IMG/VR virus record: IMGVR_UViG_3300027881_000014
Location: 1-59,405 of that record
Reading direction: 5' to 3' (one strand)
DNA: 59,405 nt
Source: a virus
Lineage: Duplodnaviria; Caudoviricetes
The translations under genes and the position numbers were made by a program. The first letter of the stretch is position 1. Each line of letters opens with the position of its first letter. Below, piece after piece: positions 3,232-55,200 of the stretch. The notes beneath the pieces are model-generated. The model made no database searches and was not told the DNA's origin. It worked only from the letters and a program-made list of their open reading frames with translations.

Positions 3232-5324
3232 TATTTATAGCCTCCTTTGGCTTTATATTGGTCATCTGCTTGTGTAGCATTAACTCCTGTTAAATCATTG
3301 TTAGTTGTTTCATCTCCTAAGAATAAAGCATTAGTATTCCCTTTCCACTTCCACCATCCAACAATAGTCCCACCTGTATAACTGCCAGTCATATTCTTGC
3401 CTTTAGTACCATTGTTATAATTAGTTAGTACATCACTATCACCAAATCCTGCATCTTCTATATTATCAAATCTTATAAATTGTAGCTCGCCTATTAAGCC
3501 ATTAAATTCACTCGCGTTGTTAAAAGCACCTATCTGTAACGGAGTTATTGAACTTCTTATTGTACCAATTTCAGTTATATCCCAACCATTCCCAGTTCTT
3601 GGGTATAAATCAAAATACATACTATCTGTTCTGTCAATAGACAGATAAAATAAATCCCATTGATTCAATACTGGGTCATTTGTACTTGATGGATTATAAG
3701 TAGTCCCATTTATAAAAGCTCGTAAATCGCCAGAGGCATAATAAAAATCCCACTGTGCGAGTTCACTAAGTGACCTATAAGAAAATAATCTATAAGTAGT
3801 TGCTACATTCGCAGGATTAAACCACCCTATTACAGCAAAATCATAAGCCTGACTCACATCCATATTGTCTATATATACTGTATCTGGTTGGTTGAGGTAC
3901 ATCTGTAAATCAGGTGTTGGGTTACCAGTAGTATCCCACTCAAAATTCCACACTAAGGTTTCAAATGCTGATGGGTCAACATCACTGAATGTTTTGCTAC
4001 TGTCTCCTACTACAAGTTCTAAGTCTGGGGGGGTTACTTGTTTGAGCGATACGTTATCAAACACTACCCCTGTAAGAGTGGCGTAGGGTCTTAGAAAAGT
4101 ACCAGCTGATTGAAATACGTGAGTATGAGTTCCATTGCTATAAAATGCAGTAGCTTGTCCAGCACTACCTTCATACCATCCCCCCTCTCCACCAACAAGA
4201 GTTAAATCAAAGGTAAGTTCATACCATAAATCTGCTGTCAGTATAGTTTGCTCAATAGTATTATTGCTATAAGCACCATCTTTTAGACTTTCAAATTCAC
4301 CACCTGTTCTATCCCAATAAGTAGTATCAGCACCTCCAACCCAAGCCCAACCTGTGTAGTCACTAAAGTCACCATTTGTAATTAACTCACTTCCCTTTAT
4401 TCCCTCACTATTAGCATCCATCTGCCAAGTATATTTCTTACCGTGTTCTAATGCTGTGAAATCAGCTGCTGGTAGTGAGGTGTAGTTGGTTGTTGCATCG
4501 CCCACTGGAGTTTTATATACAGAAACATCATCAAAATATAATATATCACCCTCTGCACCACCTTCTGTCCAAATTCCTATTAGTTTCCCCGAATTTGATT
4601 CGCAAACGTCGGTGAACGTAGCTTCAAACCACGAACCTTGGCCTTGCCCTGAATAATCTGCCGAATAACCAGTTATGCTGGTGCCATCATCATACATTAT
4701 CTGTACGGCTGTAAACGATTCTCCTGTTTCCAGATAAAGCTGTGCGGTTATCGTATAAGTTTCTCCTGGTATCATCTCTAATAGGTAGGCATCTAAAAGT
4801 CTCGCCGCAAGACGAGTTCCCACAACCGAACCAACAGTAATTTTACCAACTTTTTCTGCCCCTGGATTAGTACCATCATAAGTCACAGTACCATTTGAAC
4901 CACCACCAGTTAATACAACCCAATTACCGATATTACCACTTGAAAAATCTCTATCGTTTAGAGCAGCTATAGATTCAGTCGTATCACTAACAATCACCCC
5001 ACCATAACTACCACCATTGTTTGTAGATGAAGTATCTATAGTGTGGTTACCGTTGCCTGTCCAATTAGTTGTATCACCATCTTCAAAATCAGAATCTTTT
5101 CCGGAATCTGCAATACGTAAAGTATCATTTAAGTCTAAGTTTACTGGTGAACTGTTAGAAGCGTATTCATCTATGCCATTAAAGTCAATAGCCCATAGAT
5201 TTTTTTCTTGGCCACTATATATAGAACTACCAAATGTATGTATCCACCAATAATCACTTTCCCATGACTGTGCATTTGTAAGCCCAACTAAAAGTAGTGT
5301 GCTACATAATATTCTTTTAAACAT
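3231..5324 (-). CDS. Secreted carbohydrate-binding protein (CBM4/9-like repeats plus LamG/ConA-like domain)
   Basis: Signal peptide ...GLTNA|Q. Motifs DFEDGDTTNW, ELITNGDFS, YFDDVSV, FDNVSLK are CBM-like. DFNGIDEY...FAVIGWF...LQIGA...FNGLIGEL...VGWWKW is LamG-like. Confidence 0.65.
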   Translation of the reverse strand: MFKRILCSTLLLVGLTNAQSWESDYWWIHTFGSSIYSGQEKNLWAIDFNGIDEYASNSSPVNLDLNDTLRIADSGKDSDFEDGDTTNWTGNGNHTIDTSSTNNGGSYGGVIVSDTTESIAALNDRDFSSGNIGNWVVLTGGGSNGTVTYDGTNPGAEKVGKITVGSVVGTRLAARLLDAYLLEMIPGETYTITAQLYLETGESFTAVQIMYDDGTSITGYSADYSGQGQGSWFEATFTDVCESNSGKLIGIWTEGGAEGDILYFDDVSVYKTPVGDATTNYTSLPAADFTALEHGKKYTWQMDANSEGIKGSELITNGDFSDYTGWAWVGGADTTYWDRTGGEFESLKDGAYSNNTIEQTILTADLWYELTFDLTLVGGEGGWYEGSAGQATAFYSNGTHTHVFQSAGTFLRPYATLTGVVFDNVSLKQVTPPDLELVVGDSSKTFSDVDPSAFETLVWNFEWDTTGNPTPDLQMYLNQPDTVYIDNMDVSQAYDFAVIGWFNPANVATTYRLFSYRSLSELAQWDFYYASGDLRAFINGTTYNPSSTNDPVLNQWDLFYLSIDRTDSMYFDLYPRTGNGWDITEIGTIRSSITPLQIGAFNNASEFNGLIGELQFIRFDNIEDAGFGDSDVLTNYNNGTKGKNMTGSYTGGTIVGWWKWKGNTNALFLGDETTNNDLTGVNATQADDQYKAKGGYK

Positions 5325-24410: not shown

Positions 24411-24792
24411 ATAGTATCCTTTCTATTAGTTGATGATTATTTAATGAACCTCACACTATCTAAGGTGGGATTCCTTGGTGATAATGTTTGATTGTGCCTT
24501 ACGGCATAAAAATTTCTCTCCTGAATGCCTTTCCTTCTGACTAGACATCTACCCGCATGCTTTCATACTAAGGATATATAGCAGTGTCGACCACACTCGC
24601 TTTGCCTTCCGGCTACTGGTTTACGGCCAGATTTTGGTTCGTTCGTATTACGCTAATGAATAGCACCGAACAGGCGTGAGATACACCATAAACGGAGTGT
24701 GCAAAGTAACTACGTTACCTGCACATTAAAAACATTGCACCTCACCTGAAATCAATCAAGAATATTGGTGCAAAGTTGAGGACAACAATAAG

Positions 24793-24866
24793 TACTCCAC
24801 AGATGACTCGAACATCCAACCTCAGCATCCGTAATGCTGCGCTCTATCCAATTGAGCTAATGGAGC
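24793..24866 (-). tRNA. tRNA-Arg(ACG), CCA not encoded
   Basis: GCTCCAT TA GCTC AATTGGATA GAGC G CAGCA TTACGGA TGCTG AGGTT GGATG TTCGAGT CATCT GTGGAGT A: complete cloverleaf. Confidence 0.9.
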
Positions 24867-28245: not shown

Positions 28246-29271
28246 ATGGCAAAGAAATCAACAGGCGATGGCGTAGAACATCGCAGAAGGTTGCGAGAAT
28301 ATCAAAAGACTAACAAAGAACTCAGGGAAGACCTGAACAGTGCTAACGCTGAACTCAAATTAGTCAGTGAAATGAATAAGTATTATGAGAGTAATGCTAA
28401 CACACTACGTACTATGAAGGCTATCAAGGTTGATAGAACCAAGCCTAAGAAAGAAGAGCAAGGTACGGTCATTTCATTGTTAAGTGATATTCACGCAGAA
28501 AGTAAGATTACATTAGAGCAGACAAATGGATTTAACAAGTTCAACCCAGGAATATGTGAGCAAAGGTTAGAACATTATTTTAAGAATTTCATTACATTAG
28601 TTAAACTCACACGACGTGGGATTACTCTTGATAACTGTGTTATTGGTTTATTAGGTGATATTATACACGGTTTTATTCACGAGGAATACCTACGTACAAA
28701 TTATATGACACCCGTGCAAGCATCTATTTGGATAACAGATATTCTTGTAGAGGGTTTTAAATTCATATTAGAGCACGGCAAGTTTAGAAATATTACAGTT
28801 ATATGTAAGATAGGTAACCATTCACGGACAACAAACAAGATTTATAGTGATGAAGAAGCACTACATTCATACGAATGGGCTATTTATAATGCATTAGCTA
28901 AAGCAATACCAGAGATTAAGTGGGTGATCAGCGAATCATATTTTACATATCTTAAAGTATATGATAAGATGTTAAGATTCCATCACGGCCACGCTTTCAG
29001 ATATATGGGTGGTATTGGTGGCATTTATATTCCTTTAATGCGATTTATTGCCAAAGTTAATAGGCAGATAAAGGCTGATATGGATTTTATTGGACATTGG
29101 CATACGCGAGACGCACTCTCGTCTGGGGCGTGTATAATGAATGGAAGTATATGTGGAGCCAATCCATATTCTATTCGCTTAGGTTTTCCCGCAGAGGAGC
29201 CTACGCAACAATTTCAAATATTAGATTCCAACCGTGGTTTTACTATCAATGCTCCCATAGTATTGGAGTAA
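28246..29271 (+). CDS. Calcineurin-like metallophosphoesterase with N-terminal coiled coil
   Basis: LSDIH, LGDIIHG, GNH, HHGH, GHWH motifs. Confidence 0.8.
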   Translation: MAKKSTGDGVEHRRRLREYQKTNKELREDLNSANAELKLVSEMNKYYESNANTLRTMKAIKVDRTKPKKEEQGTVISLLSDIHAESKITLEQTNGFNKFNPGICEQRLEHYFKNFITLVKLTRRGITLDNCVIGLLGDIIHGFIHEEYLRTNYMTPVQASIWITDILVEGFKFILEHGKFRNITVICKIGNHSRTTNKIYSDEEALHSYEWAIYNALAKAIPEIKWVISESYFTYLKVYDKMLRFHHGHAFRYMGGIGGIYIPLMRFIAKVNRQIKADMDFIGHWHTRDALSSGACIMNGSICGANPYSIRLGFPAEEPTQQFQILDSNRGFTINAPIVLE

Positions 29272-29275
29272 CAGA

Positions 29276-29528
29276 TATTCGTGATCCCTCGCGAATGGGT
29301 AGTGCTTGACAAACAAAAAACATCAATCTCCTCCAAATAAATCATAGCATCCTCCCTAGTTGACACTACCCACGAGTTTCTGCGTTCATTTGCCGCAGCA
29401 TACAAATAGTAAATGGACCTCCTTTCACCGTTGATAATATGGACGGTATATAAACACAGTATGTACGCCTACAAGAACCGAGACTAAGCTTTACCGGGCC
29501 GAGGTCTTGACTATTGTAGGCTTTTTTT
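29276..29528 (+). ncRNA. Candidate sRNA with anti-RBS loop and pseudoknot, ending in a terminator-like stem
   Basis: Stem 29296-29310/29359-29372, H-type pseudoknot 29380-29418, stem GCCTACA/TGTAGGC plus T7 at 29467-29528. Confidence 0.45.
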
Positions 29529-29748
29529 GACTTACGCTTCAGTATATGTGTCTGAGTCTGGCGAATGCAGATGCGGAATTCATATACTAAGAAGCGAATA
29601 AATATCAAGAAGAGCAAAGCACGAGATGTATTGTGAATATTCAGTCACAGACTGCTTTAGGATCCTGATAAAGGAAGTCCTACACAATGTGTACATCTCA
29701 GGAAACATCAAATGCGAGCGTATTTTACGTGTTGAATCATTTGATGTT

Positions 29749-29939
29749 GGGGCTGTAGCTCAGTCAGCGGATGATCCGTAATGATTAACCAAGATACTCG
29801 GCGACATAAGTACGTACAGTCGAGCCCTAACATTTACTCAGTCAGTACTTGATATGCATTAAGGTAAGTGATATCAACGGTGATATAGAGCGTCTGTTTT
29901 AGGAACAGAAGGTCGCGGGTTCAAATCCCGCCAGTCCCA
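29749..29939 (+). tRNA. Atypical tRNA-like RNA, anticodon UAG, with a 126-nt D-loop
   Basis: Acceptor GGGGCTG/CAGTCCC plus A; D-stem GCTC/GAGC; anticodon arm TCTGT-TTTAGGA-ACAGA; variable loop AGGTC; T-arm GCGGG-TTCAAAT-CCCGC. Confidence 0.7.
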
Positions 29940-29988
29940 CTACCCTCTCCAAATAATATATTATTAACTAAACAGAAAGAAGGCAAAT

Positions 29989-30225
29989 ATGGAAACCCAA
30001 ACAGCAATTGGAGCAGTTGGTATAGTAATGGCTTGTTCATTTATACTACTCATCTTCTTTGTTGGTCTGGTTGCATCGGTGAAATACGTTAAACGCGTGT
30101 ATCACCAGGAAAGAGGCAATTTGATTACTCCTGAAGCAGGTAAACTAATTCAAGAAGAAAATGCTGCCTTAAGAAACCAAAATCTCAAAATTATGGAAAA
30201 ACTGAAAACACTGGGTGCTAAATAA
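29989..30225 (+). CDS. Membrane protein with coiled coil
   Basis: N-terminal TM helix; SD GAAGG. Confidence 0.55.
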   Translation: METQTAIGAVGIVMACSFILLIFFVGLVASVKYVKRVYHQERGNLITPEAGKLIQEENAALRNQNLKIMEKLKTLGAK

Positions 30226-30302
30226 TTTTTAGGGTCTCGTAGAGTCTATAGTGTGGGCTCCGGTGTCCAAAGCCGTGAGACCCACTTAATCATAGGAGAT
30301 TT

Positions 30303-32539: not shown

Positions 32540-33007
32540 ATGGAGCTAAACGCATTATCTATTTTGATAGGTATCATTGGAACTACAAGCACATTTGCGC
32601 TACTCTTTTGGCTAATAGGTATGATAAGGAATGCTAATCGATATGACAGACCTATCTACCTTGCTCGTGATGATGAAGTAGCCTATGCAATGGCTATGGC
32701 TAGTCCTCGTAGAATATGGATATATGATGATGTGACATCTCTTGTTTATGATAATTGGGATTTGCAATTACTTAAAGCTTATCCACAAATCAAAAGCAAT
32801 TATGACACTATCCCAAGAATGTGCGACTTGATCCTAACCCCCAAGAAATGGGGAGGTTATTGGGCAAGCGTAATTACTAAAGACCTTGGGAAAAAGCATA
32901 CAAGAGAGATGCAGATTTATCAATACATTACTACATTCTTAGGAGAATATCATGAAGATCATCACATCTCACGAAATAGAGAAGCTGGTACTAAGATTGT
33001 ACCGTAA
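32540..33007 (+). CDS. Hypothetical membrane-anchored protein
   Basis: N-terminal TM helix. Confidence 0.5.
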   Translation: MELNALSILIGIIGTTSTFALLFWLIGMIRNANRYDRPIYLARDDEVAYAMAMASPRRIWIYDDVTSLVYDNWDLQLLKAYPQIKSNYDTIPRMCDLILTPKKWGGYWASVITKDLGKKHTREMQIYQYITTFLGEYHEDHHISRNREAGTKIVP

Positions 33008-33437
33008 GTTATGTAGTTCACCAAATGATTTCAAATTAAATGAAAAGGACAAACAAACAATTTTGAGCATAGTTAAATTATTCAACTTTACAATAGCCGA
33101 TGAACATCGAGGCATAGTAGGATATAGTGACTGGGCAATACCAGTTATCGTTAATCAAGAACCTGATATAAGGATAGTTGACCAAGGAGAGGGACTCACT
33201 GGTAATCAATCTGAGATATTCAGGACGGTTAAATACCAGATTTATAGCGATTTTCTATTAGCTGTATGGGATGGGCATGTAACAGATGTAATGTTAGTCT
33301 ATGCTGGGCTGATTCAAATAGGACATCAGGTAGAGGTACTACCTCGATTAAGTGATAAGAAATGTTATTCCTATGAAATGGCCAAGAAAGAGTATGATAA
33401 GAGATTACGAGGTAAGCATGATAAGAAGAAACCATGA
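32952..33437 (+). CDS. Hypothetical protein
   Basis: ORF with SD AGGAG in a co-oriented run. Confidence 0.5.
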   Translation: MKIITSHEIEKLVLRLYRKLCSSPNDFKLNEKDKQTILSIVKLFNFTIADEHRGIVGYSDWAIPVIVNQEPDIRIVDQGEGLTGNQSEIFRTVKYQIYSDFLLAVWDGHVTDVMLVYAGLIQIGHQVEVLPRLSDKKCYSYEMAKKEYDKRLRGKHDKKKP

Positions 33438-33903
33438 TGTCTATGTTATCTCTTATGGTATTAATGAATTTCCAGTAGGAAGAATTAAACAGGATACACT
33501 ATTTTTGGATAATCCATCCCGTCATAGACATACGATGAGTTATGGTATTGATAGAGAAGTTTTAACATCTGATGAGATGGATTTCCAATATATAATAATC
33601 CGAGAAAGAGGCAAAGATTGGACTACCTCTCGAAGCTTCTGGAAAGATTATGGTAAGATACAGGATTTAAACAATGGAAGAGTAGAATTATTCTTAGCAG
33701 ATGAATGGTATGGTGAAGAAATAACCATTCTCTACAAGAAAATTTTAGAGAACAAATGGTTACAATTTGATATATTTGACCTTGCTCATCACTCTGGTAG
33801 TTGGGATGGATTCTATAAAGTCTTACCCTATTGGGAAAAAGCTTATGAGCTCAAAGATGAGCTTAAAGAAAAATTGAACTATATCAGAAAGGTTGAATTA
33901 TGA
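33352..33903 (+). CDS. Hypothetical protein (start probably at MIRRNHD)
   Basis: ORF in a co-oriented run. Confidence 0.5.
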   Translation: MIRNVIPMKWPRKSMIRDYEVSMIRRNHDVYVISYGINEFPVGRIKQDTLFLDNPSRHRHTMSYGIDREVLTSDEMDFQYIIIRERGKDWTTSRSFWKDYGKIQDLNNGRVELFLADEWYGEEITILYKKILENKWLQFDIFDLAHHSGSWDGFYKVLPYWEKAYELKDELKEKLNYIRKVEL

Positions 33904-43210: not shown

Positions 43211-46200
43211 TTATTTAAATATTGTTTGCCATAAATTCTTACCCTTAAATAATCTATCCAAGAAAGGAACATAGGTAAATGGATCAGCTAACCATACAAG
43301 CCTAGACTTGGTATCATTAGTACCAAAACCTGTAAACCCTTTGTTATCTGTATCTACCTTCCGGCCATGAGCAAAAGACTTAGTTCTCCTACTCTCCACC
43401 CTTACATAAGGATGAGGGAATACATCTAAGTCAACTCCCCAATATAGCTTACGCTTTTGATATTGAGCGGCTCTGTTATCGGCTGATGTCCAACCCATTA
43501 TCTTTATACCTGTAGTAAAGTCATCGACTAACCAAGGTACATCTAAAAACTCTTTACTTCTTTTATCAGGAGCAGATTCAATAGCACCTAACTGATTAGC
43601 TGCATCCCACAATTGGTTATATACTCTCCATAAGAAATCAGGAGTATCATCTACTCTGCCCTTAAGAAATGTATCATCTAATCCTTTAGTAGGAACTGTA
43701 GCTATAGACTGCCATCCTAATTTCCAAAGCATACCCATAGGTAGCATTAGATCTTGTAATAACCATATTGCATTATCTCTATCATCCTCGTCATCAAAAT
43801 CAAATCCATTTTCCATTACATCAAATAAGAAGTCTAAAGCACCATAAGCTACTTGACCCATAGGATCTTGCATGTTAGTAAAACCATAGAATATACGAGT
43901 ACCAACATTCATCATGATACCAGTAAGTAAAACTTTATTTAAGATACCATGTAATAAGAGCACCTCTTTCATTGGTCCACCTGGACCTATAGTATTACCT
44001 TTTGCATCTGCAAACTTATTAATGTGATTCATCATAGTACGGATTTGTTTGATCTTAGCTACTTCTTCTGGTCTATTATGTGCTACCCTCAACATTTGAG
44101 GTATAGCATCTTTCATAATCTTTATAGCTTTAGCCATAGAGTTATACTGATACTGAGCATACTGATGGGTAATAGATCCCATCTTAGTATTAGCCCCAAA
44201 CTGTTTGTTAGCAGTACCATAGAATGCATGCCTTAATTCAACTGAGTTAACACCAAATTGTATGGCTTCTTCAGGAGTATAGCCAGCATCGATAGCTGTA
44301 TTATATCCTATAAAGAATGCTGGTATTCTAAGCTTCTCTGCCTTAGCCTGAAAGCCTAGTCCTACATTACCTGTAAAGAACTTCTTCCATGCTACACTAC
44401 CAGCTAATTTCATAACTTGCTGAGGTGTAATGCCTTGTTCTTGAGCTACATTCATAGTAGGTTTAACACCTGATTTAGCTAACTCATTAATCTTAGCCCA
44501 TAGGTTACGCTGATCATTATCACTTAAGTTAATCTTAGTATCTTTAAGTTGATCAAAAGTTACACCCTCCCATTTAAGTTTAAGTGCATTAACTTCAACC
44601 TGAATATTCATCCTAGTCACTTCATTTGTTGCTAGGTTAAACTTATGTTCTAATTCATCTAACTTTTTGCGTGTTGTTTCATACTTAGTAGCATCTTTAT
44701 ATAAATTAAATAAATATCTAATACCTTCTTTACTACTAAATTTAACTATCATGTCTTCTGGTCTAATATTAGCAGCTTCTAATGCAATAGCTAAGATATT
44801 ATCCCCAGTAAGACCAAGTCCCGTAAGCGTCTTATATAAATGTTGATCCTCTGGTAACATCGCATCAAGATCACCATGAGACATTCTTGCCCATATATCA
44901 TTACCTAATTTCCATTGTGCTTTATTATATCTAGGTGCATCTACTAAGTTATTTATAAATGCTCCTACTTGGTTGACTACTCTAGCCTTAATGGCTGCAC
45001 CCATACCCATAAAGAGTAAGCCTGTGCTTTTTTTCATCATACCTATTGCACCACTAGTTATACCTGCTGCTCCTTGTGCGAGCCTGTAATAGGACGTAGG
45101 CATTATACTTTCATACTCAGCTCCCATAAGCTGTATGTTACGTAGCCTATCTCTAGTAGCTTCTAATCTTTCAACCACACCCGTACCCGTATAGGCCATC
45201 ATAGCATTATGAACTGGTCTACCTGCTGGATCAGATGCATATAAATCTTTACGTTTGTGTCTTCCCATCAGGGATGGGTCTTTAGCTATCCGTTTAGAGG
45301 CCTTTACGATAGCCTCAGCGGCCTTAACAGAGGTTAGCCTAGCTAAGTTAACTCCTTTAAAATCTTCCTTCGTTAGGAAGCCTCTATTCAATAAATTCTG
45401 TATAACATTACGTTCACGTTGTGTGGCTTTATTTTGCTCTCTACCTGTTGCTAAGAGACCGGTGATAGTTTGGTTATAGCGTGCAATATCTTGCCTAGCT
45501 TCCCAACCCACCTTAGCAGCATCAACTACAAAGTGTACTTCATCTTTAGTTATCTTCTTAACTATACCTGAATGTTGTGCTGTACCCCATGAAGTTAAAG
45601 TATTATTAGGTTGTAGTATAGAGGTCTCTTTAGTAAAATGAACCTGTTGTCCTGGTTTAACATCTCCCCATGACATAACCTTAGATTTTAACTCTTTATC
45701 ACCTATTTGATTAGCATACCAATTACGTGTAAGTTCAATAACATTATTACGTTCACCTGCTAGTCTAGCATTACCCTGATACAATAACCAATCAGCTAAT
45801 AGACCATCTTTTGTTAATCCATCTATTAATTTCGTATTATAATTTAGATGTATATTAGGATCAGTCTTAGTATAATGAGTAGCATCAGGCATCTTACGTG
45901 GAATAAAGTTAGGTATAATGCTACCTGAATTCCAACCTGCTGATACTATATCCCATTGTTGCAATGCCCCTGTATGAGCAAGCTTTCTAATTTCATCTCT
46001 ATCCTTTGTAAGATCAAGTCTTGCTAAAGGGTTACCAGTATTATATTTTTGTGCAAATGCTATTTGTCTTTCAAGATCTTTAACAGCATGTCTTAGATAT
46101 CCCTTCATCCACATAGCTTTATATCTAGCTATAGGGAACTGATGAGGCATATAATTACCCTTAAATACTTCAACAGCCTGAAGCATTGCTCTATACTTGC

Positions 46201-49200
46201 GTATCATAGCATCTACTCTCAATGCTGAGTCTAAGTGTTGTGCGCCTTCCAGTTCTTCTCTTGTTCTTTCTAAGTACTCTAGTGCCTGCCTTAATATCAT
46301 GGGCACTTGTACGTCATACATTTCTCGTATGTCTATAGCGCCGATGAGTCCGAGCTTTTGTACTGGTGATAGCTTGCTAAAATGGTTATCTATTAGGTCA
46401 CTTACATTATCATATACATGTTCTTGACCCAGCGTTACTACATACTGCGTAACACCTTCTGCGTTTGGACGTACTGTAACTCTTTGTTTACTTGATAAGT
46501 CTTCAGCTAATGTAAATATTTGTTTACGTCTAGCTTCTAATAACATATCATCCTTATCAGTTACTTGATTTACTAAGTTAGATATTAAACGCGTACGAGC
46601 AGTATGTTCAATGTGTGTCTTCTCTGATGCTACTGAAGCATATTCAGATGCCCACTTTCTTCTGAATTGATTATGCGATAGTATCTGAGTAATAGTATCA
46701 TATCTTTTAACCTGATTCGTAAGAGTAACTTGATGCGTAGACAATGCCCTATGCATAGCCTGTGATTTATTCTTAGTTATAGAACTCTCGCCCATGGTAA
46801 TGAATGAACGTATAGCATGAGTAAGTCTTGATATTCTTACATCTTCTCCTGTCTGATCAGTTACGCCTTGTTCATTCCAAACAAATGATATAACATCATC
46901 TTTAGGAGAGAACACTCTAGTTAATTTTTCTGATAGTTCAGTAACTAAGTCATAACCTATAATATTAGAACCTATCCTACGCATAAACGTAAGATTCTTA
47001 TTACGTGCACCTTCTCTTTTCCTTACAGCAGTAAAAAGATAATACATCTCTATGATAGTACCTTTTAGTAACTTATTACTAGGATCTTCTCCTATATTTT
47101 GCCTTAAGAATGTTTCAATAATATTACTACCTTCATATTTATCTACAGCAATAGCAATATGAGTTGTATCTACATCTTTATATTTCTTTTGAAACTCTGC
47201 ATCACTCAATTGGGTAACGTCTTTTACTAAGTCTTTATAAAATACACCATTTTCAGATAGAGCCTTAATAGTAAGCGTATTTTGCAATAACTTCTTCAAT
47301 TGCTCTCTGCCATGCTGCCAATCCTTACCTATCATAGACTTATAAAACTTTCTAAAGCTAGGATCTTTAGCTACCTTAGCATGTTCATTAACATAGTCCA
47401 TAAAGAAATGCTTAAAAGTATGTTCAGGACTTTCTACATGAGCATCTTCATATATCATATCTACGTTAGCATCAACACCATCTTGTAAGACTTGATTAGT
47501 CTTTTGTTGATCTTGAGGGCTACGTTGTGCATTCACATGAGAGTATAGTTGCATCCACAAGTTCATTAGTTGAGGCTCAAACTGAGCCATAAGACTTAAT
47601 GCTATATGGTTGCTCTGATATCTAAATGGTTTTGCTGGATCATATGCTGACTGATTCACTATAAAGCCAGTAGCCTTACGTTCTAACATTCCTTGATCAC
47701 TTGTCTGGGCTAAGAGCCCTAACCAGAATGCTACTTGATCATCAGTAGTAAATTTCCTTGTACCATATAGGTTCTCAGCTAGATACGCTTCAAGTATTCT
47801 CTGTCTCGTATCCATATTTAAATTTCTTGGGAGTTTAAGAAGACTAGACATCTGCACTCTATTAAAAGTACCTTCAGACTTGTTTTCTACGCCTTCCCAT
47901 AGGCCATTTTCTTCGGTCAATAGTCTACGAAGAAGATCAGCTCCTTCACTAGTGCTTTTATTAATCTCTGTATGGGTATACTTTTTCTTATTAAGCAAGA
48001 ATACAAGTTTACCAGCACCATCAGACTTGACTCCTATTCTCTTACCACGAAAGACAAGTGCTATAGGGGCAACATTATCTTGTAAGAATAAGAAGTTTTG
48101 ATTTAATATATCTTTCCACAAGATTGGATATGTTTTAGCATGAGCCTCTCTCGTAATTCTTAATTGTTCTGATACACCTTTTGCATCTTCTTGTTCAAAA
48201 GTTTCATCAAAAGCATGTAATATGCTATTAGCTTCTGCTCTAACACTTCTTAATTGATTATGCCAATAAGCTTTAGTCTTGTCATTACCTTCTTGTAATC
48301 TACCTTCAAAAAAATCTGCTGATCTAGGCATTAAGGATAATGAAATAGCATCGCTATCAACATGTATTTGTCTACCATCTCTCTGGAACGGAGTAAAAGC
48401 ATTACCTACTCTAGCATCTACTTCTTTAAAATCAATAATAGCATCTTTAAGATCTTGTTGTGATGCAGCCGATAGCTTAGCTCTAAGCTTCTCAAAGTGT
48501 GCCGTATTCTTTAACATAGCTCTTACATCCTCTACAGGATTTTTGCTACTAGTACGCATTAAACTTAATATTCTTTGAGCTGGTTTATAAGCTATGCGTT
48601 TACCAATTTTAAAAACATTTGCACCTTGACTAGGTTTATGGGAAGTAACATCATCCCACATAGACTTCACAGCTGGGTAGTATGGTAGGGCTCCTGTAGA
48701 GGCTAATACTTGGTTGATCAAATGATCCTTGTAAGTATTCCCAGGCATATCACGCAGCATCTCCGCTGCATTGACATTGCGAATCATGTTGAATAATGGG
48801 TAAGCATAGACGTCATCAACTTCCATCTTGCTTACGAAGCTTTGTAAGAACGCATATCTTTGCTTAAGTACTAAGAGACCAGCTTTATAATCTTTGGTAT
48901 TCTTAAAGTACTTACGTTCTAATTGTGTCTTCCCATCATTAATATATTGATCAACAAGAGATAAAAGTCCTTGCTTATCATTACGAGCAAGTACATCTAA
49001 CTTATGTTGTGCCTTACGTAATTGCTGTAAGGTTTCATAATAATCTAATTTCTCAAAGGTCTCTGGGTTACGTTGCCGTGCTAAGTTAAATGCCTCAGCA
49101 AATAACAAGTTCTGGAATCCTTTTAAAGTAGTATACATATTATCTGTATTAGTAAACTTACCTTGAGTTTTATCCATAGCTTGTATTGCTACTGAATCAT

Positions 49201-52200
49201 TCAGTCCCCAGAAATGTGCACCCATCTTTCTTTTATATATTGCTGATTTAGGATTAGAATTATAAGCTAATCTAGTAGTCTTATTGGGGAAATCTACCTC
49301 AGCATTTGTCATATTTAAGTGATGGACATGTAGTCTTAGCCATTTGCTATTACGTACATTAAAGTTTTCTTTAAATTCTACCCATCTACCCCCTGGTTTT
49401 ACCCTGGTTATCAGCTTACCTGTCTTAGTAATGTAAGGTATAACCACATCCTTAGCTCTCATATTCATAGTAGAAAGAGCTGTGTGTAATATTCTTTCAT
49501 TTATAATAGGAGCTGGATCATGTAAATAGTTAGAATCAAGTGCAATAAATGAATCTCCCATAATGGAAAACTTATTCCTTTGACCTTCTACAGCACCATT
49601 CATTAAGATACTATATGTCTGCCTCATCGTTTCGCTTTGGAAGACGCTATCTTCCGTAACAGGTATCTCTTCACCTGCAGCATCTTTAACTACCGTGCCA
49701 TGCTCTGCGAATAATTTCTTTGTTTCAGAAGCAACTCCCTTTGCATATACACTAGGTAGTTTGCTAGCTATATCAGTAAGAGCATTAAAATTATCTGGTG
49801 TCCAAAATCTAGGATCATAAGGGATGATAGATATATTATCTATATCAAAATCTTTTCCAACAAGGGTCTGTATCCATTCTGAATTGAATGTAGCCTTGCC
49901 ATTATCAGATACTTTTCTACCACCTGCTTTGCTCTCCTTTGACTTAACTATACCAGCTACCCTTACACCAATAACACCTAATGGTGAATCAGTAGGAGTA
50001 ACTACTGCCATTACCTTGTCACCTGGCTTAATGCCGTGACGTTCGGCAATGTCTTCTGTAATTAAAGTCCAACCTTTGTTAAGTCTACCAGTTTTAAAGT
50101 TAATAATACCATTAGTCTGACGTATTAACTCATGAGTAACTGGATCTACTTTATGTGTACCCCATACAACTTCATCTCTCCATGTAGTTACATCTTTATT
50201 GGCCCAGTTAATAGCTGAATGAGGTGCAATATCAGATATCTCTTTACGTTCTGACTCTATGTCCGCAAGAGCTAATACCTTTTCTTCGCCCTGCAATTGT
50301 GTATGAGCTCGTTGTTCTCTCCTTTGCAATTCTATTAAATGTTTAGCATCTTTTCTGCTCTGTGTAGTATGCGCAGCAGCAGCTACTTTCTTAGGTACAG
50401 GCATATTAATCAATATATTACCTAAGTTCCAACTACCTAGAATAGGATCTATATCTTTTTGCCAGTTAGCATAACCTATATTAGGATCAAGTACAGCTCT
50501 ATTACCTGCTGTCTTACCACCTAGCATTTGGCTAAGCTTATGTTGCATCCTATTACGTAATACTTCTGCTGTATGAGCATGTTGAAAGAAACCTGCATAT
50601 CTACGTAAGATAGTGGCCTCTGTTTCATTAGCCTTAGGCTCAATAACATCAATCCATATATTAGATACTGACTGCTCTTGAGGTGACTTAGGATTATATA
50701 CTACATCTTTAAGTAAAGTATACATAGCTGCAGGAGTAGTATTATCTGCAAACCATTGTTTAGTTTCTGATGCCATAGCATTAGAGAAGTCTGTCATAAT
50801 CTTACTAAGCTTAGGTCCACCTATATCCTTAATAAATTGATTATACAGCTCACTAAATGCTGTACCACCCATAAGCTGTTTAACACTACCACCCATGGGA
50901 TCTTTAAATTCTGACTCACTAATACGTGAGAATTGACTCATCTTTAATGGTATGATAGGATCAGCAGCTACAAAGTCTGGGTTACTCATAAGTTCAAGAG
51001 CACCCACAACCCTAACCTTAGGACCTTCTTTCATAGCTTCATCTGCTGTCATAACTGCTACATTATTTCTGATCATCATTTGACCTAATGCAGAGTCCTT
51101 ATGTACACCATGCATAGCATGCTTAATGAATAAAGGATCTTGACCAGCACGTGAACTATATAAGTTCTTGATAGTACCATCTTTAAGGACAGCATGAGCT
51201 AGGTTATAAGCCTTATCAAAATGTCCTATAATATAGAAAGAAGCACCATCTATAGTAGATGTATTAAGTTCATTCTTAAATGCTTCGCTTAATTTTATCT
51301 CTCTAGTTACACCATCTGGTGTCTTAAATGTAATAAGGTTATTATCAAAGCTATTTACAACCATAGCGTTAACAGCTATATCACCCTCAACAAATTCAAT
51401 ACCATTAACAGCAGCATCACCAAATGCTTGCTCAATATCTGCTTCATCTATAACAATACCAGTATCTTGAGCCATCCATTTAGTACCACGCTTTTGTATT
51501 TTATTCCAATCTTTAGCAGCTTGACTTTCATTAGAAAACCATATTTGTTCTAATAAAGCTCTTGAAGTAGCTGACATTTGCTGTGGTTCACCATAAGGAT
51601 TCTTCTCATCAGAAGTACCAAAATCTTCTTGGAACTCTTGAAAGGCTTCTTTTTCATAAACCTTTTGAAATTCTTGTAGTGCTGCTTTAATCTGTACTCT
51701 ATACTCACTATTAAATGTTAAGATTGGTACAGTGTTGGCACCAGCAAATGAACCTAGATACAACATACCTTCTTTAGATGCTCTAGTTATAGGGGCTGAC
51801 CATAAAACTTCTGATATATAGCCCGTAACAGGCCCAGCATGCTTAGGATCAACATTAAAGAATGTAGAATTTAACCTTTCTAAACTACTCCGATTGGTAA
51901 CTTTATCATCTTTCCAAGTTTCAAAACCTTCTATATAAGCAATCTTTAATGAGCCTTTAGGCATCTTTAATTGCTCTTCTAAGAGAGGAAGATAACCTTC
52001 TAATGCTGTCTTACGTCTAAATGTATTTCTCTTCTTACCATTACCATCTCGGTATACGCCCTCAACTTTGCGCAGCTCCAAACGATAATCCGTTTCCCCA
52101 CTATTAGGATCACGCTGATGGACACCCATAACAACATAACCAACTTTAGCCTCCTTCATCATCACATTAAGAAATGCTCTTTTTAAGAATACCTTTCTAA

Positions 52201-55200
52201 ACTGTGCGACAGTTTTATGTATACCACCTTTATAGTTAAAATACAAATGCTCTATCTTCTTATTAATGATATTACGATGAGCTTTATCTAACAGATCCAT
52301 ATCAGTTTGAAAATCGTCAAAACCTGTCTCGCCAGCATAGCGACCACGCATGATCTTTCTATACTCACCCTCAGGCATGCCATTTAATTCAGAAGCTATA
52401 GCAATAAAATTCTCTATGTTGCCATTCTCTGCCTTATTTTCATTTTCATTTGATATATCATCAGGATCTTGCATTTTATCTAATAGTTCATCCTGATCAC
52501 TATCTTCTGCATATTCTGTAGTCTCATAGCCAGAGGTTACATTCTTTTGTATCCGTAAGTTTTCTTTGGCTATCCTAGCACTCCACTCTTTATCTCTACC
52601 CTTATTAAAATCACTAATCTTTCTATTATGATCCTCTAAGATACTCTGTAGTTGTAGAGTAGCAGACTTCTTAATACCTAAGTTCTCAAGTGATTGTCTA
52701 ATAGCTCTCCAGATAGCTCTCCAACCTGTTATTGGCTTATGAATACCGCCTACATTAACCCTATCAGTAATAAACTTGATAGCCTGCGTATCTGATAAAA
52801 CTGCTGTAATAAATTCTTCTTCGCTAAGGAATGATTTCTTGATTAACTTAATGTTTTGGCTAATCCATTGCTGAAGTTCGGCTTTATCTCCTAGATAGCG
52901 TTGTGTAAATAATGTACCCTTGCCCTTAGAGTTGATAACACTACGTACAGTTTGCATGATAGATCTAATCTGACGATTAAATTCTTTAGCTGATACTGTA
53001 TCTGAATTCATATATCTACCAAGATAACTATGAAGCATCTCATGTACGGTAGTATCCCATACTGAGTGATTGTTCCATAGAGTAGCATTAGGATTAATGA
53101 ATATATTACCTGAAGCTTTTTCAGTAGCACCTGGATGTTCAGCTTCCATAGGCTTAATGCCTATCTTAACATCACCTACTTGTTCTAATAGATTATCTAC
53201 TACTTCTTGTGTAAGGGGATTTTGAAAACCTCTGCTAGTAAGATACTCTATCATATCTTTAACAGTATTCCCCTTAAAACCTGCAGTTACTTCATCATAT
53301 GTAGGCATGCCAAAGGTAGCATCTGGTATATTCGTAGTCTCAAAAGTAAAACCACCCGCAAGGTTAGCGTCTGCCACACCCTCTGTATGTGATTCTCCTC
53401 CTAAACCTGTAATTGCATCTGTTTCTGTTCTAGTATGGAAGTTACCACGATTATCTATAAATCCATCTTCTACCCTACCATCATCTAGGGTTATATCACT
53501 TGGAAAACCACCTGCATCAGTAATATCTTGTAACAGCTGTACATGTATTTGACCTGGCTTACCTTTCCAAACCTTACCATCAATCCGCTCGCCTACGGCT
53601 ACCATTTTCAGATTACTTCTCATACTCTGAACTGTGGTTTGTGCTAGCTTCATTGCTAAGCTTTTGGATTCCATTTGAAATTCGCCACCAGACATTGGAT
53701 CAAAGAATGATACGGCTAAGTTATCTCCAAATTGTGTAACACCTTTAAATTCAATACCTAATAATCCAGACATTGCCTGGGCCTTGTCAACTACACTTGC
53801 AGCTGTCGGTGCATCCTGTAACTCAAAGTCTTCATCTGTCACCCAACCAAAGTCATCAGCATCATCCGATTTGGTCTTGAAATTGCCATTCTCATCGAAG
53901 CCTTGGAATTGGCTACCATCAACGTCTTCCATTACTTCATTACCTAGCACAGTGCCTACCTGAGCGATGGCTAGACCTATATTTTCCTCAACGCCAAGTT
54001 GATAAGTCTTCTTGGCTTGAGCTTGTATCTTGTTTAATGATTGAGACTGCCCCTCTTTAGTAAACTTAGTTTTAGGAATCTCAATTTCTAAATTTGAATT
54101 TTGTAAATCTTGAGCTTGTGAGATAATCTTTTTAATTTCAGGATTACCCTGATGTCTATGAAATAAGTATCCATAGCTAGTCTCATCAAAGTCTAAAGCA
54201 ACAGCGAGGTTTAAGTCTTTCTTTAGTTGCGCATTATCACCAGCAATAGCTGCTATCTTTTGATCTAAACCAGTTGTAGCTATATACTTATCAATACCAT
54301 GTATAGCTCCTTCCATGATAGCATGTGATGTTTCTTGATCAGCCTTAAATAAATAACTGTCCACCTCATATGATATATGATTCTTGTCTTTAGTCTTATT
54401 ATCTTTAATGCTTTCCTTAGTATCTCTCTGAGATAAAGCAGACAATAACATTTGAGTTTCTCTCTTACCATGTTCAAAGACAAAGTCTAAAACATTAGCA
54501 CGAGGCAAACTATTAACAGACTCAAGAGTACCTGCTATAATATAGCTTTCTCTCTTATCTACTTCTTGTTTAGCTACTTCATCTGCTGAAGTTTCTACTA
54601 ATGGATTGCTTTTACCAGTTCCCTGGTCTAAAATTACTTTAGCTGTTTCGCCTTCTTGACTAACGTCTACGTCAGCTTTCTTTTCTAAACTCTCTTCAAC
54701 TTTTTCTTTGATTGGGTCAAGTTTTTCTCCACCCAAGAGTTGTTCTAACTCACGTGCAGCTGCTTTTCCATATTGCTTTTCATAATCTTCAAGAGGCTTC
54801 TTTGTCCAGATATTACCTACTTGAAATGTACTTCCTAATACGGTACCAACTGCTATTTCTACTACTAAGTTTCGATAGGCTTCTCTTGCTTGATCATCAT
54901 CACCGAAAGCTATCCATATAGCAGATCCATGACCACCTTCAACTATATCATTAAAAGCATCAGTAACCTGCTCTGTAGCAGTTTCTATGATAGCACCTGA
55001 GAATAAAGTTCTACCAGTATTCTTTAGTAATTCTTTAGCTATAAGTTTTCTATCTGCTTGTAATGATGCCAATCCTCTTTTAAGAGCTTCTATATTCTTG
55101 GGAATCTTAGAGTTCTTAATCATAGATTTCAATTGAGTAGATGTTAACCTAAGTGATTTCTTAGTTCCATCTTTACCTAATACGGTTACAGTTTTGCCAA

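What the first reader, a model, noticed from the sequence alone, without database searches (positions are those of the whole stretch)
29749..29939. tRNA-shaped RNA with a 126-nt structured D-loop and mismatched identity (UAG anticodon on a short-variable-loop body)
Seen: all four tRNA stems are intact, but the D-stem halves (29758-29761, 29888-29891) are separated by 126 nt. The insert holds three hairpins (GCGGA/TCCGT, CTCGGC/GTCGAG, TTGATAT/ATATCAA) and a second copy of CTCAGTCAG (29759-29767, 29837-29845), and ends just before a GG that could be G18G19. The anticodon is UAG (Leu), but the variable loop is 5 nt; the acceptor is Ala-like GGGGCUG with A73 and a G4:U69 wobble. Established: bacterial tRNA-Leu has a long variable arm, and ~115 nt is shorter than typical group I introns. 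Inference: a novel intron type, a tRNA scaffold displaying an RNA domain, a decoy for anticodon nucleases, or a mis-decoding tRNA.
Basis: partly seen in the sequence, partly recalled or inferred. Interest (0 to 1): 0.75.

Follow-up and report, generated by a model that had tools for sequence, protein, structure and literature searches.

The report
Phage tRNA gene split in D-loop
A marine phage carries a complete tRNA gene split in its D-loop by about 115 unrelated bases; it is most likely a recently disrupted gene copy, though an unknown kind of intron cannot be ruled out.

Summary
At 29749-29939 (+) lies a complete cloverleaf: 7-bp acceptor, 4-bp D-stem, 5-bp anticodon stem with loop UUUAGGA, 5-nt variable loop, canonical T-arm, A73, no encoded CCA. 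The D-stem halves are 126 nt apart. ARAGORN misses it as it stands. Removing 115-118 nt in silico gives tRNA-Leu(tag) at score 121.2. The 5' piece is the only place in the 59-kb virus that pairs with both the acceptor and the D-stem.

The body is tRNA-Pro(UGG)-like with G35 changed to A and a non-Pro acceptor.

The insert matches no Rfam family, folds no better than shuffles, and is not conserved. The nearest relative (L007) has, at the same spot, a tRNA-Ile(GAU) split by an unrelated ~105 nt in the T-stem. Beside it are degenerate tRNA-like genes. One seawater variant diverges inside the insert.

The host is bacterial, so archaeal-type splicing is unlikely.

My odds:
- recently disrupted mosaic tRNA in a fast-turnover tRNA island, about 0.45
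- unknown intervening sequence that is removed, about 0.25
- unspliced tRNA-like RNA, about 0.2

No RNA data exist.

The parts
29467..29528 (+). Terminator-like hairpin (18-nt arms) followed by a T-run, downstream of the exonuclease gene. The tRNA locus therefore probably has its own transcription start.
   Evidence: Inverted repeat I1; T-run read. The consensus scan did not list it.
29704..29748 (+). 5' leader hairpin (11-bp perfect stem AACATCAAATG/CATTTGATGTT) that ends at position -1 of the tRNA.
   Evidence: Inverted repeat I5; present in the fold (29530-29990, z -4.22).
29749..29763 (+). 5' exon-like piece: acceptor 5' strand GGGGCTG, U8 A9, D-stem 5' strand GCTC, A14 G15.
   Evidence: the only 7/7 + 4/4 partner in the window; 17 nt are 94% identical to the start of the L007 tRNA.
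29764..29876 (+). Intervening sequence, about 113 nt (115-118 by ARAGORN's best deletions). It holds three hairpins and a second copy of CTCAGTCAG at 29837-45. A variant in run X3 diverges after 29827.
   Evidence: Boundaries come from the best deletions and from the normal D-loop AGACGGATA of related tRNAs seen as loose ends.
29877..29887 (+). Rest of the D-loop: ACGG (G18 G19 at 29879-80), four extra bases TGAT, then ATA (A21).
   Evidence: compared with the loose-end consensus and the T4-like tRNA-Pro.
29888..29939 (+). 3' exon-like piece: D-stem 3' strand GAGC, G26, anticodon arm (anticodon TAG at 29900-02, G37), variable loop AGGTC, T-arm, acceptor 3' strand CAGTCCC, A73. No CCA encoded.
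   Evidence: Rfam tRNA 35.9 bits over 29879-29939; 87% identical to tRNA-Pro of T4-like phages.
29942..29952 (+). Conserved 3' trailer ACCCTCTCCAA, shared with L007 and in diverged form with L006, upstream of the small membrane-protein gene 29989-30225.

Best explanation
This is a genuine tRNA gene of a marine tailed phage of a bacterial host. Its D-loop is interrupted at the DNA level by about 113-118 nt of unrelated sequence with the base composition of the genome.

The gene is a mosaic. The ends (acceptor and D-stem 5' strand, T-arm and acceptor 3' strand, trailer) are shared with the orthologous gene of the nearest relative. The core is tRNA-Pro(UGG)-like with G35 changed to A, which gives anticodon UAG.

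It lies in a non-coding island behind a terminator-like hairpin. In this phage lineage, tRNA genes in that island are gained, recombined, interrupted and degraded.

Most likely (inferred, not shown) the insert is not removed, and the gene no longer yields a working tRNA. It would then be a young relic whose stems have not yet decayed. If transcribed, it would give a roughly 190-nt tRNA-like RNA with an intact acceptor/T-arm minihelix. RNase P and the CCA-adding enzyme could still act on such an RNA (inference from what is known of those enzymes).
For: - It is a real split tRNA.
- The insert matches no Rfam family at E<=10 and folds no better than shuffles (z -0.20).
- The insert has no detectable relative. 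It scores like shuffles against the inserts of L007b and L007c. It has no other copy in the virus. Exact-pattern scans of viral contigs found nothing.
- The orthologous gene in L007 has the same 3' trailer and the same downstream gene. It is a tRNA-Ile(GAU) split by an unrelated ~105 nt inside the T-stem 5' strand, a site that an unspliced working tRNA could hardly tolerate.
- The same island in relatives holds degenerate tRNA-like genes. L007b has a ~122-nt D-loop insert, an 8-nt anticodon loop and only low-scoring calls. L007a and L006 4700-4774 are also degenerate.
- Run X3 holds a contig identical up to 29827 and unlike the window from there on. The stretch is being swapped between near-identical genomes.
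- Odd identity: 80 of 80 cellular tRNAs with this anticodon-arm context are Pro(UGG). Here G35 is A, and the acceptor has G1:C72 rather than the C1:G72 of the Pro tRNAs seen.
- A generic scan of viral contigs gave 8 matches. Six were tandem tRNAs. One was a second D-loop-interrupted (~107-111 nt) tRNA-like gene with mismatched stems, in a 279-kb phage with 43 tRNA matches of 51-89 nt, 41 of them over the Rfam cut-off. It looks like a dead copy.
- Contrast: the phage's other tRNA, Arg(ACG), is uninterrupted and kept in L006 with compensatory stem changes.
Against: - All 21 stem pairs and the conserved tertiary positions (U8, A14, G15:C48, G18G19, A21, T54-A58) are intact. A long-dead gene should show damage.
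- The ortholog in L007 is also perfect apart from its insert (ARAGORN 122.6 after deletion). That makes two of two close relatives carrying intact but interrupted genes, which fits a tolerated or removed insert better than chance hits.
- The three inserts in this lineage are of similar size (about 105, 115, 122 nt).
- Contigs from three runs (X1, X2, X4) carry the interrupted gene without a single difference. X1 may be the window's own source sample.
- CTA makes up 204 of 1365 Leu codons, so a UAG-anticodon tRNA would have work to do.
- No expression data exist either way.
Confidence: 0.45

Rival explanations
1. The insert is an intervening sequence that is removed from the transcript. It would be a new, small, non-group-I kind of tRNA intron in a phage of bacteria. 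It might be cut out by cellular or phage nucleases and rejoined by an RNA ligase such as RtcB, or be self-processing. The product would be a working tRNA that reads CUA/CUG.
For: - The cloverleaf is intact in the window and in the L007 ortholog, with inserts at different positions (D-loop; T-stem 50/51). This is the pattern seen for removable introns in archaea.
- The T-stem position in L007 is only compatible with function if the insert is removed (inference).
- The inserts are of similar size.
- Precedent: Lak megaphages have oversized tRNA genes with unclassified 'enigmatic introns' (PMC6784885, passages read; preprint passages).
- One ORF (33352-33903) has a weak, sub-threshold RNA-ligase match (PF09414, 21.2 bits against a cut-off of 27).
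Against: - No Rfam intron or ribozyme matched at E<=10.
- 113-126 nt is too short for a group I or group II core (established knowledge).
- The L007 insert ends in C rather than the G that ends a group I intron.
- The host is bacterial: GH108 lysin with PG_binding_3 and a DnaB helicase, plus tRNA-Arg(ACG). No bulge-helix-bulge endonuclease is therefore expected, and I saw no convincing BHB by eye.
- The inserts share no sequence and show no excess fold stability.
- The RNA-ligase hint has no support from PHROGs or PDB sequence search.
Confidence: 0.25
2. The RNA works unspliced, as a tRNA-like non-coding RNA with an added three-hairpin domain. It would be comparable to T4 species 1 RNA (rnaC), tmRNA or YrlA. 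It might act as a decoy for tRNA-targeting nucleases or modification enzymes, or as a processing signal for the operon.
For: - The acceptor/T-arm minihelix and the anticodon arm are intact.
- The insert sits in the variable pocket of the D-loop, before G18G19, where extra bases point outwards (established tRNA structure).
- The whole non-coding stretch 29530-29990 is far more structured than shuffles (z -4.22; 0 of 100 shuffles fold as well).
- T4 rnaC, read and folded here, is a 139-nt stable RNA with a tRNA T-arm, paired ends and two extra hairpins.
- Relatives keep a 600-900-nt non-coding island with tRNA-like elements at this place.
Against: - The insert itself is no more stable than shuffles, is not conserved in L007, and is partly replaced in X3.
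- The L007 ortholog has its insert inside the T-stem strand, which would break the minihelix.
- No homology to any known tRNA-like RNA: tmRNA scores 20.8 bits against a cut-off of 47, YrlA did not match here, and ARAGORN finds no tmRNA.
Confidence: 0.2
3. The two halves are debris of site-specific or illegitimate recombination and were never one gene. A 5' tRNA fragment, like the attP-type tRNA-Ala half of relative L002, would happen to lie 113 nt from a 3' fragment of a Pro-type tRNA.
For: - L002 carries, at the same place behind the exonuclease gene, a 42-nt 5' half of tRNA-Ala(GGC) next to a tyrosine integrase. Its first 16-17 nt resemble the window's 5' piece.
- The core of the window's tRNA is of a different type (Pro) from its ends.
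Against: - The two pieces pair 7/7 and 4/4 at the correct offsets, and this is unique in the window.
- U8, A9, A14 and G15:C48 all fit one molecule.
- The window has no integrase.
- L007 has the same ends around a different core, which points to gene conversion within one gene rather than unrelated fragments.
Confidence: 0.1

Closest known systems
'Enigmatic introns' in tRNA genes of Lak megaphages (Devoto et al. 2019, PMC6784885; passages read)
   Same: Both are phage tRNA genes that are too long for bacterial tRNA finders, carry an unclassified inserted sequence with no Rfam class, and have a bacterial host.
   Different: The Lak inserts were placed by eukaryote-mode tRNAscan, that is, in the anticodon loop. 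They are identical across cohorts, and one looks like a nested tRNA. Here the insert is in the D-loop (T-stem in the relative) and is not conserved. Their Supplementary Table 6 could not be opened, so positions and sizes were not compared.
Archaeal (and Cyanidioschyzon) tRNA introns at non-canonical positions, removed at bulge-helix-bulge motifs
   Same: Inserts occur in the D-loop and T-arm of otherwise perfect tRNA genes, at different positions in related genes.
   Different: Those introns need the splicing endonuclease of archaea or eukaryotes. This virus has bacterial-host markers (peptidoglycan lysin, DnaB, tRNA-Arg ACG). I found no convincing BHB by eye. Archaeal introns are usually much shorter (recalled).
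Group I introns in bacterial and phage tRNA genes
   Same: An intervening sequence in a bacterial-type tRNA gene.
   Different: Known examples sit in the anticodon loop and are 200 nt or longer (recalled; review PMC3984707 seen only in a search listing). Here there is no Rfam match, 113-126 nt, and a D-loop position.
T4 species 1 RNA (rnaC), a stable tRNA-like RNA in the T4 tRNA cluster
   Same: A phage-encoded RNA longer than a tRNA, with a tRNA T-arm and paired ends plus extra hairpins, of unknown function, in a tRNA locus.
   Different: In my reading of the fold, rnaC shows two extra hairpins and no canonical D or anticodon arm. The window's RNA keeps all four arms. No sequence comparison was made.
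tRNA pseudogenes in phage tRNA arrays
   Same: An interrupted, mosaic gene with an odd identity, in a variable locus beside degenerate tRNA-like copies.
   Different: Pseudogenes usually show point damage. Here every stem is intact, and the only lesions are one large insert, four extra D-loop bases and the G35A change.

Membership tests
tRNA (Rfam RF00005) | Four paired arms: 7-bp acceptor, 3-4-bp D-stem, 5-bp anticodon stem with a 7-nt loop and U33, 5-bp T-stem with a TTCRA loop | tested here: met
   Read directly. The partner is unique. ARAGORN scores 121.2 after deletion.
tRNA (Rfam RF00005) | A contiguous gene of about 70-95 nt recognised by standard finders | tested here: not met
   The gene is 191 nt. 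ARAGORN makes no call. Rfam matches only the 3' 61 nt, at 35.9 bits.
tRNA-Leu (bacterial, class II) | A long variable arm | tested here: not met
   The variable loop is the 5-nt AGGTC. ARAGORN's name 'Leu' rests on the anticodon alone.
tRNA-Pro (bacterial) | Anticodon NGG (G35, G36) and C1:G72 with A73 | tested here: not met
   The body resembles Pro: 87% identity to T4-like tRNA-Pro, and 80 of 80 context matches are UGG. But position 35 is A and pair 1:72 is G:C.
Group I intron | A conserved P3-P9 core, about 200 nt or more, with a terminal G | tested here: not met
   No Rfam match at E<=10. The insert is 113-126 nt.
Self-cleaving ribozymes (hammerhead, twister, pistol, hatchet, HDV-like) | A match to the family's covariance model | tested here: not met
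   0 matches at E<=10 on 29745-29895. None in the L007 inserts.
Archaeal BHB intron | A bulge-helix-bulge at both junctions, and a host with the splicing endonuclease | tested here: inconclusive
   By eye there is only a relaxed half-motif (GTCA/TGAT helix with an ATA bulge next to the D-stem). No BHB-aware tool was available. Host markers are bacterial.
tmRNA | An Ala-type acceptor with G3:U70, a tag reading frame and pseudoknots | tested here: not met
   ARAGORN finds no tmRNA. Rfam tmRNA scores 20.8 bits against a cut-off of 47, on the T-arm and acceptor only. The wobble pair is at 4:69, not 3:70.
Integrase attachment site (tRNA fragment) | A partial tRNA next to a recombinase gene | tested here: not met
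   PF00589 gives no match in the window. Relative L002 does have this arrangement.

The most novel reading that the evidence does not exclude
Phages of bacteria carry a so far undescribed class of short (about 100-125 nt) tRNA intervening sequences, without a group I core, that sit at non-canonical positions (D-loop here, T-stem in the ortholog). They would be removed by an unknown cut-and-rejoin pathway. The product here would be a tRNA with a Pro-like body, a non-Pro acceptor and a Leu (UAG) anticodon.
Probability: 0.2. Interest if true: 0.85.

Novelty: new variant of a known kind. Interest (0 to 1): 0.5.

Why it matters
If the insert is removed, this would be tRNA splicing at non-canonical positions in a bacterial system without a group I ribozyme. 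That would point to an unknown RNA processing or ligation pathway and a blind spot in tRNA finders for phage genomes.

If it is a relic, it still matters in a smaller way. It shows how phage tRNA islands turn over: cores are swapped between constant ends, large inserts arrive, and decay follows. It also shows that standard annotation (ARAGORN, Rfam) misses such genes or reports only part of them.

Either way, one small-RNA experiment on this locus settles the question.

Tried and rejected
- **RNA evidence.** No RNA holder was listed. All four runs laid are DNA contigs.
- **Close relatives of the insert.** Exact or gapped patterns in viral contigs found nothing. Records very near the window may be hidden by the tool.
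- **blastn against 50,697 phage records.** Only the 47-48 nt Pro-like core matched.
- **More relatives through the exonuclease.** Two viral loci; 8 with a profile, 6 of them new and none with a tRNA; 11 metagenome loci; none in genome contigs.
- **Homology between inserts.** By eye I saw shared motifs between the inserts of the window and L007b. Alignment against shuffles showed chance level, so I rejected this.
- **A decayed second copy upstream.** The matches TATTCAGTCA and CTGCTTTAGGA at 29638-62 suggested one. The alignment score is like shuffles, and no tRNA appears after any deletion (0 of 11,587 variants). Rejected.
- **The 12-nt inverted repeat 29425-36/29872-83 as ends of a mobile element.** Chance level (E 2.1 against the window).
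- **The repeat of the 5' exon end inside the insert.** CTCAGTCAG here and AAGGTCG in L007c are about what chance gives in stretches of this size (my estimate). I do not use it as evidence.
- **Tandem-duplication or two-tRNA origin of the insert.** I saw no T-loop or anticodon-arm remnant in it by eye, and Rfam matched nothing on 29745-29895.
- **L007b as a tRNA with two inserts.** 115 of 47,400 double deletions were called, all low-scoring 'tRNA-???'.
- **RNA-ligase lead at 33352-33903.** Sub-threshold in Pfam; nothing in PHROGs, in PDB sequences, or by the genome search.
- **Promoter and terminator consensus scan of 29100-30300.** 0 sites.
- **Codon usage.** Uninformative without a known host.

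Full report
**What the window is.** The window is a whole IMG/VR virus record of 59,405 bp, which CheckV rates 100% complete. It was found in seawater metagenomes. It is a tailed phage with a P22-type portal, an SU10-type capsid protein, a DnaB helicase and a GH108 lysin with a peptidoglycan-binding domain. It also carries a tRNA-Arg(ACG). The lysin and DnaB, and the ACG anticodon (whose bacterial, non-archaeal distribution I recall), point to a bacterial host. No integrase is present. Cultured phages are only remotely related: large-terminase identity is below 30% in the rows listed.

**The observation.**
- Acceptor GGGGCTG (29749-55) pairs with CAGTCCC (29932-38), with G4:U69.
- U8 and A9 follow.
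- D-stem GCTC (29758-61) pairs with GAGC (29888-91). The halves are 126 nt apart.
- The anticodon arm is TCTGT-TTTAGGA-ACAGA (anticodon TAG, G37).
- The variable loop is AGGTC and the T-arm is GCGGG-TTCAAAT-CCCGC.
- A73 is at 29939, and no CCA is encoded.

ARAGORN does not call the locus. Rfam's tRNA model matches only 29879-29939, at 35.9 bits.

The two pieces belong together. Nine places in the window, counting both strands, can pair 7/7 with the acceptor 3' strand. Only 29749 also carries a 4/4 D-stem partner at the right offset.

I deleted every stretch of 15-220 nt in silico. Of 11,829 variants, 385 were called tRNA. The best (score 121.2, tRNA-Leu tag) remove 29762-29876 up to 29764-29881 (drawing).

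Related ordinary tRNAs in the same metagenomes have the D-loop AGACGGATA (loose ends). Against that, the window has 113 extra bases at 29764-29876, placed before G18G19, and four more (TGAT) after them.

**What the insert is not.**
- It matches no Rfam family at E<=10. That excludes a recognisable group I or II intron and the known self-cleaving ribozymes.
- Its predicted fold is no more stable than shuffles (z -0.20). The three hairpins are there, but they are not evidence of selection.
- The stability of the whole 191 nt (z -2.71) probably comes mostly from the tRNA stems (my inference).
- It has no second copy in the virus and no match in 50,697 phage records.
- The 9-nt repeat CTCAGTCAG is about what chance gives in a stretch of this size (my estimate).

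**Identity.** The 3' piece is 87% identical to tRNA-Pro of T4-like phages. All 80 loci I could examine carry G35, that is Pro(UGG). So the core is a Pro-type core with G35 changed to A. The acceptor (G1:C72) is not Pro-like, and the short variable loop is not that of a bacterial Leu tRNA. The gene is a mosaic with a confused identity.

**Relatives.** I used the neighbouring exonuclease gene (28246-29271, phrog_284) to fetch 2 viral and 11 metagenomic loci.

The closest informative one is L007 (71% amino-acid identity). L004 is the same lineage: 6 differences in 1,960 nt, all in the exonuclease gene.

L007 has a tRNA at the same place as the window's. Both lie directly upstream of the shared trailer ACCCTCTCCAA and the same small membrane-protein gene. 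Rfam scores this tRNA 38.3 bits over 179 nt, and ARAGORN misses it. It is a tRNA-Ile(GAU) with every stem intact. About 105 nt lie inside the T-stem 5' strand (…AGGTCGT | insert | GGGTTCGAGTCCCAC). Deleting 2371-2475 gives tRNA-Ile at score 122.6.

The start and end of this gene resemble the window's, but the core and the insert do not. The inserts of the window, L007c and L007b score like shuffled sequence against each other.

Just upstream, L007 has a second tRNA-like gene, L007b (2084-2314). It has an 8-bp acceptor-like helix, a D-stem split by about 122 nt, a T-loop, an 8-nt anticodon loop and mismatches. ARAGORN accepts it only as low-scoring 'tRNA-???', even after two deletions.

A third, shorter remnant, L007a, lies further up. 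L006 (57%) has a degenerate 74-nt tRNA-like element in the equivalent 600-nt non-coding island.

L002 (51%) has a 42-nt 5' half of tRNA-Ala(GGC) beside an integrase, at about the same distance behind the exonuclease gene. More distant relatives have no tRNA there.

By contrast, the phage's tRNA-Arg(ACG) is uninterrupted and kept in L006, with compensatory changes in three stems.

**Population data.** Contigs from three seawater runs (X1, X2, X4) cover the whole interrupted gene without a difference. X1 may be the window's own source sample. A fourth run (X3) has a contig identical up to 29827, inside the insert, which then runs on for 109 nt unlike the window. Another X3 contig rejoins at 29931. 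I could not retrieve this variant. It suggests that the 3' part of the insert and the tRNA core are exchanged between near-identical genomes while the ends stay.

**Is it a wider phenomenon?** One generic gapped pattern over 2.9 million viral contigs gave 8 matches. Six are ordinary tandem tRNAs.

One match, L155, is in a 279-kb phage with 43 tRNA matches of 51-89 nt, 41 of them over the Rfam cut-off. It is another tRNA-like gene with about 107-111 nt in its D-loop, closed by a 6-bp helix. Its anticodon stem has two mismatches and its acceptor has one. It looks like a dead copy.

The eighth match, L153, is an odd composite that I did not resolve.

Lak megaphages were reported to have tRNA genes with unclassified 'enigmatic introns' (PMC6784885, passages read; preprint passages). 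Their supplementary table could not be opened.

My full-text searches found no report of D-loop or T-stem inserts in tRNA genes of bacteria or their phages. They cover open-access papers only.

**Reading.** It is shown that this is a real tRNA gene split by an unrelated, unconserved insert, in a structured non-coding island (29530-29990, z -4.22) where this phage lineage turns tRNA genes over.

It is inferred that the gene is most likely a young, mosaic, disrupted copy (0.45). The reasons are:
- no known route removes such an insert in bacteria;
- the insert shows no sign of selection;
- the identity is scrambled;
- neighbours and an unrelated jumbo phage show the later stages of decay.

Against this, two of two close relatives have flawless stems around their inserts, the inserts are of similar size, and the T-stem site in L007 makes sense only if the insert is removed. 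I therefore keep an unknown removable intervening sequence at 0.25. An unspliced tRNA-like RNA stands at 0.2; T4 species 1 RNA is a conceptual precedent. Unrelated recombination debris stands at 0.1.

No RNA data exist. One small-RNA experiment, or junction-spanning metatranscriptome reads, would decide.

Noticed in passing
window 43211-56260 (-): A single ORF of 4,349 aa, about 22% of the genome, has no Pfam match at E<=0.01. It may be a giant virion or ejected protein.
   Followed up: partly
window 24792-24866 (-); L006 399-473 (-): tRNA-Arg(ACG) is uninterrupted and conserved between the window and L006. The acceptor, anticodon and T stems show compensatory changes.
   Followed up: yes
window 32952-33437 and 33352-33903 (+): Two ORFs overlap by 86 nt, which could mean a frameshift or a split gene. 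The second has a weak, sub-threshold RNA_ligase match (PF09414, 21.2 bits against a cut-off of 27). PHROGs and PDB sequence search give no support.
   Followed up: partly
window 29828-29930, run X3: A contig in seawater run X3 is identical to the window up to 29827, then differs for 109 nt. Another X3 contig rejoins at 29931. This looks like a swapped tRNA core and insert 3' half in a near-identical phage. The sequence could not be retrieved.
   Followed up: partly
window 29544-29612, run X1: One X1 contig joins 29543 to 29613, skipping 69 nt of the leader region. It could be a deletion variant or an assembly effect at the inverted repeat 29541-48/29581-88.
   Followed up: no
window 29530-29748: Three long hairpins (about 29535-96, 29623-29700, 29704-48) precede the tRNA. 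The whole stretch 29530-29990 folds with z -4.22. It may hold further small RNAs or processing signals.
   Followed up: partly
L007 1860-2320 (also L004): Two further tRNA-like elements lie upstream of the interrupted tRNA-Ile. L007a (about 1866-1929) is short and degenerate. L007b (2084-2314) has a ~122-nt D-loop insert and an 8-nt anticodon loop.
   Followed up: yes
L002 5568-5609 and 5708-6676 (-): A 5' half of tRNA-Ala(GGC) lies next to a tyrosine integrase, at about the same distance behind the exonuclease gene as the window's tRNA. It looks like an attP site in which the phage supplies the 5' half of the tRNA.
   Followed up: partly
L155 537-718 (-): A 279-kb phage contig has a D-loop-interrupted (~107-111 nt) tRNA-like gene with an encoded CCA, an insert closed by TGACGA/TCGTCA, and imperfect stems. 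It lies about 150 nt from a tRNA with anticodon CTA (an amber suppressor, which ARAGORN calls 'Pyl').
   Followed up: partly
window, one of 51 ORFs (not located): One ORF matches the Pfam family dGTP_diPhyd_N (dATP/dGTP diphosphohydrolase N-terminal domain, E 1e-21). This hints at nucleotide-pool manipulation or modified DNA.
   Followed up: no
window 29942-29952; L007 2500-2510; L006 about 5206-5220: The motif ACCCTCTCCAA (AACCTCTCTTCAA in L006) is conserved 35-50 nt upstream of the small membrane-protein gene. It may be a phage promoter or a processing signal.
   Followed up: no
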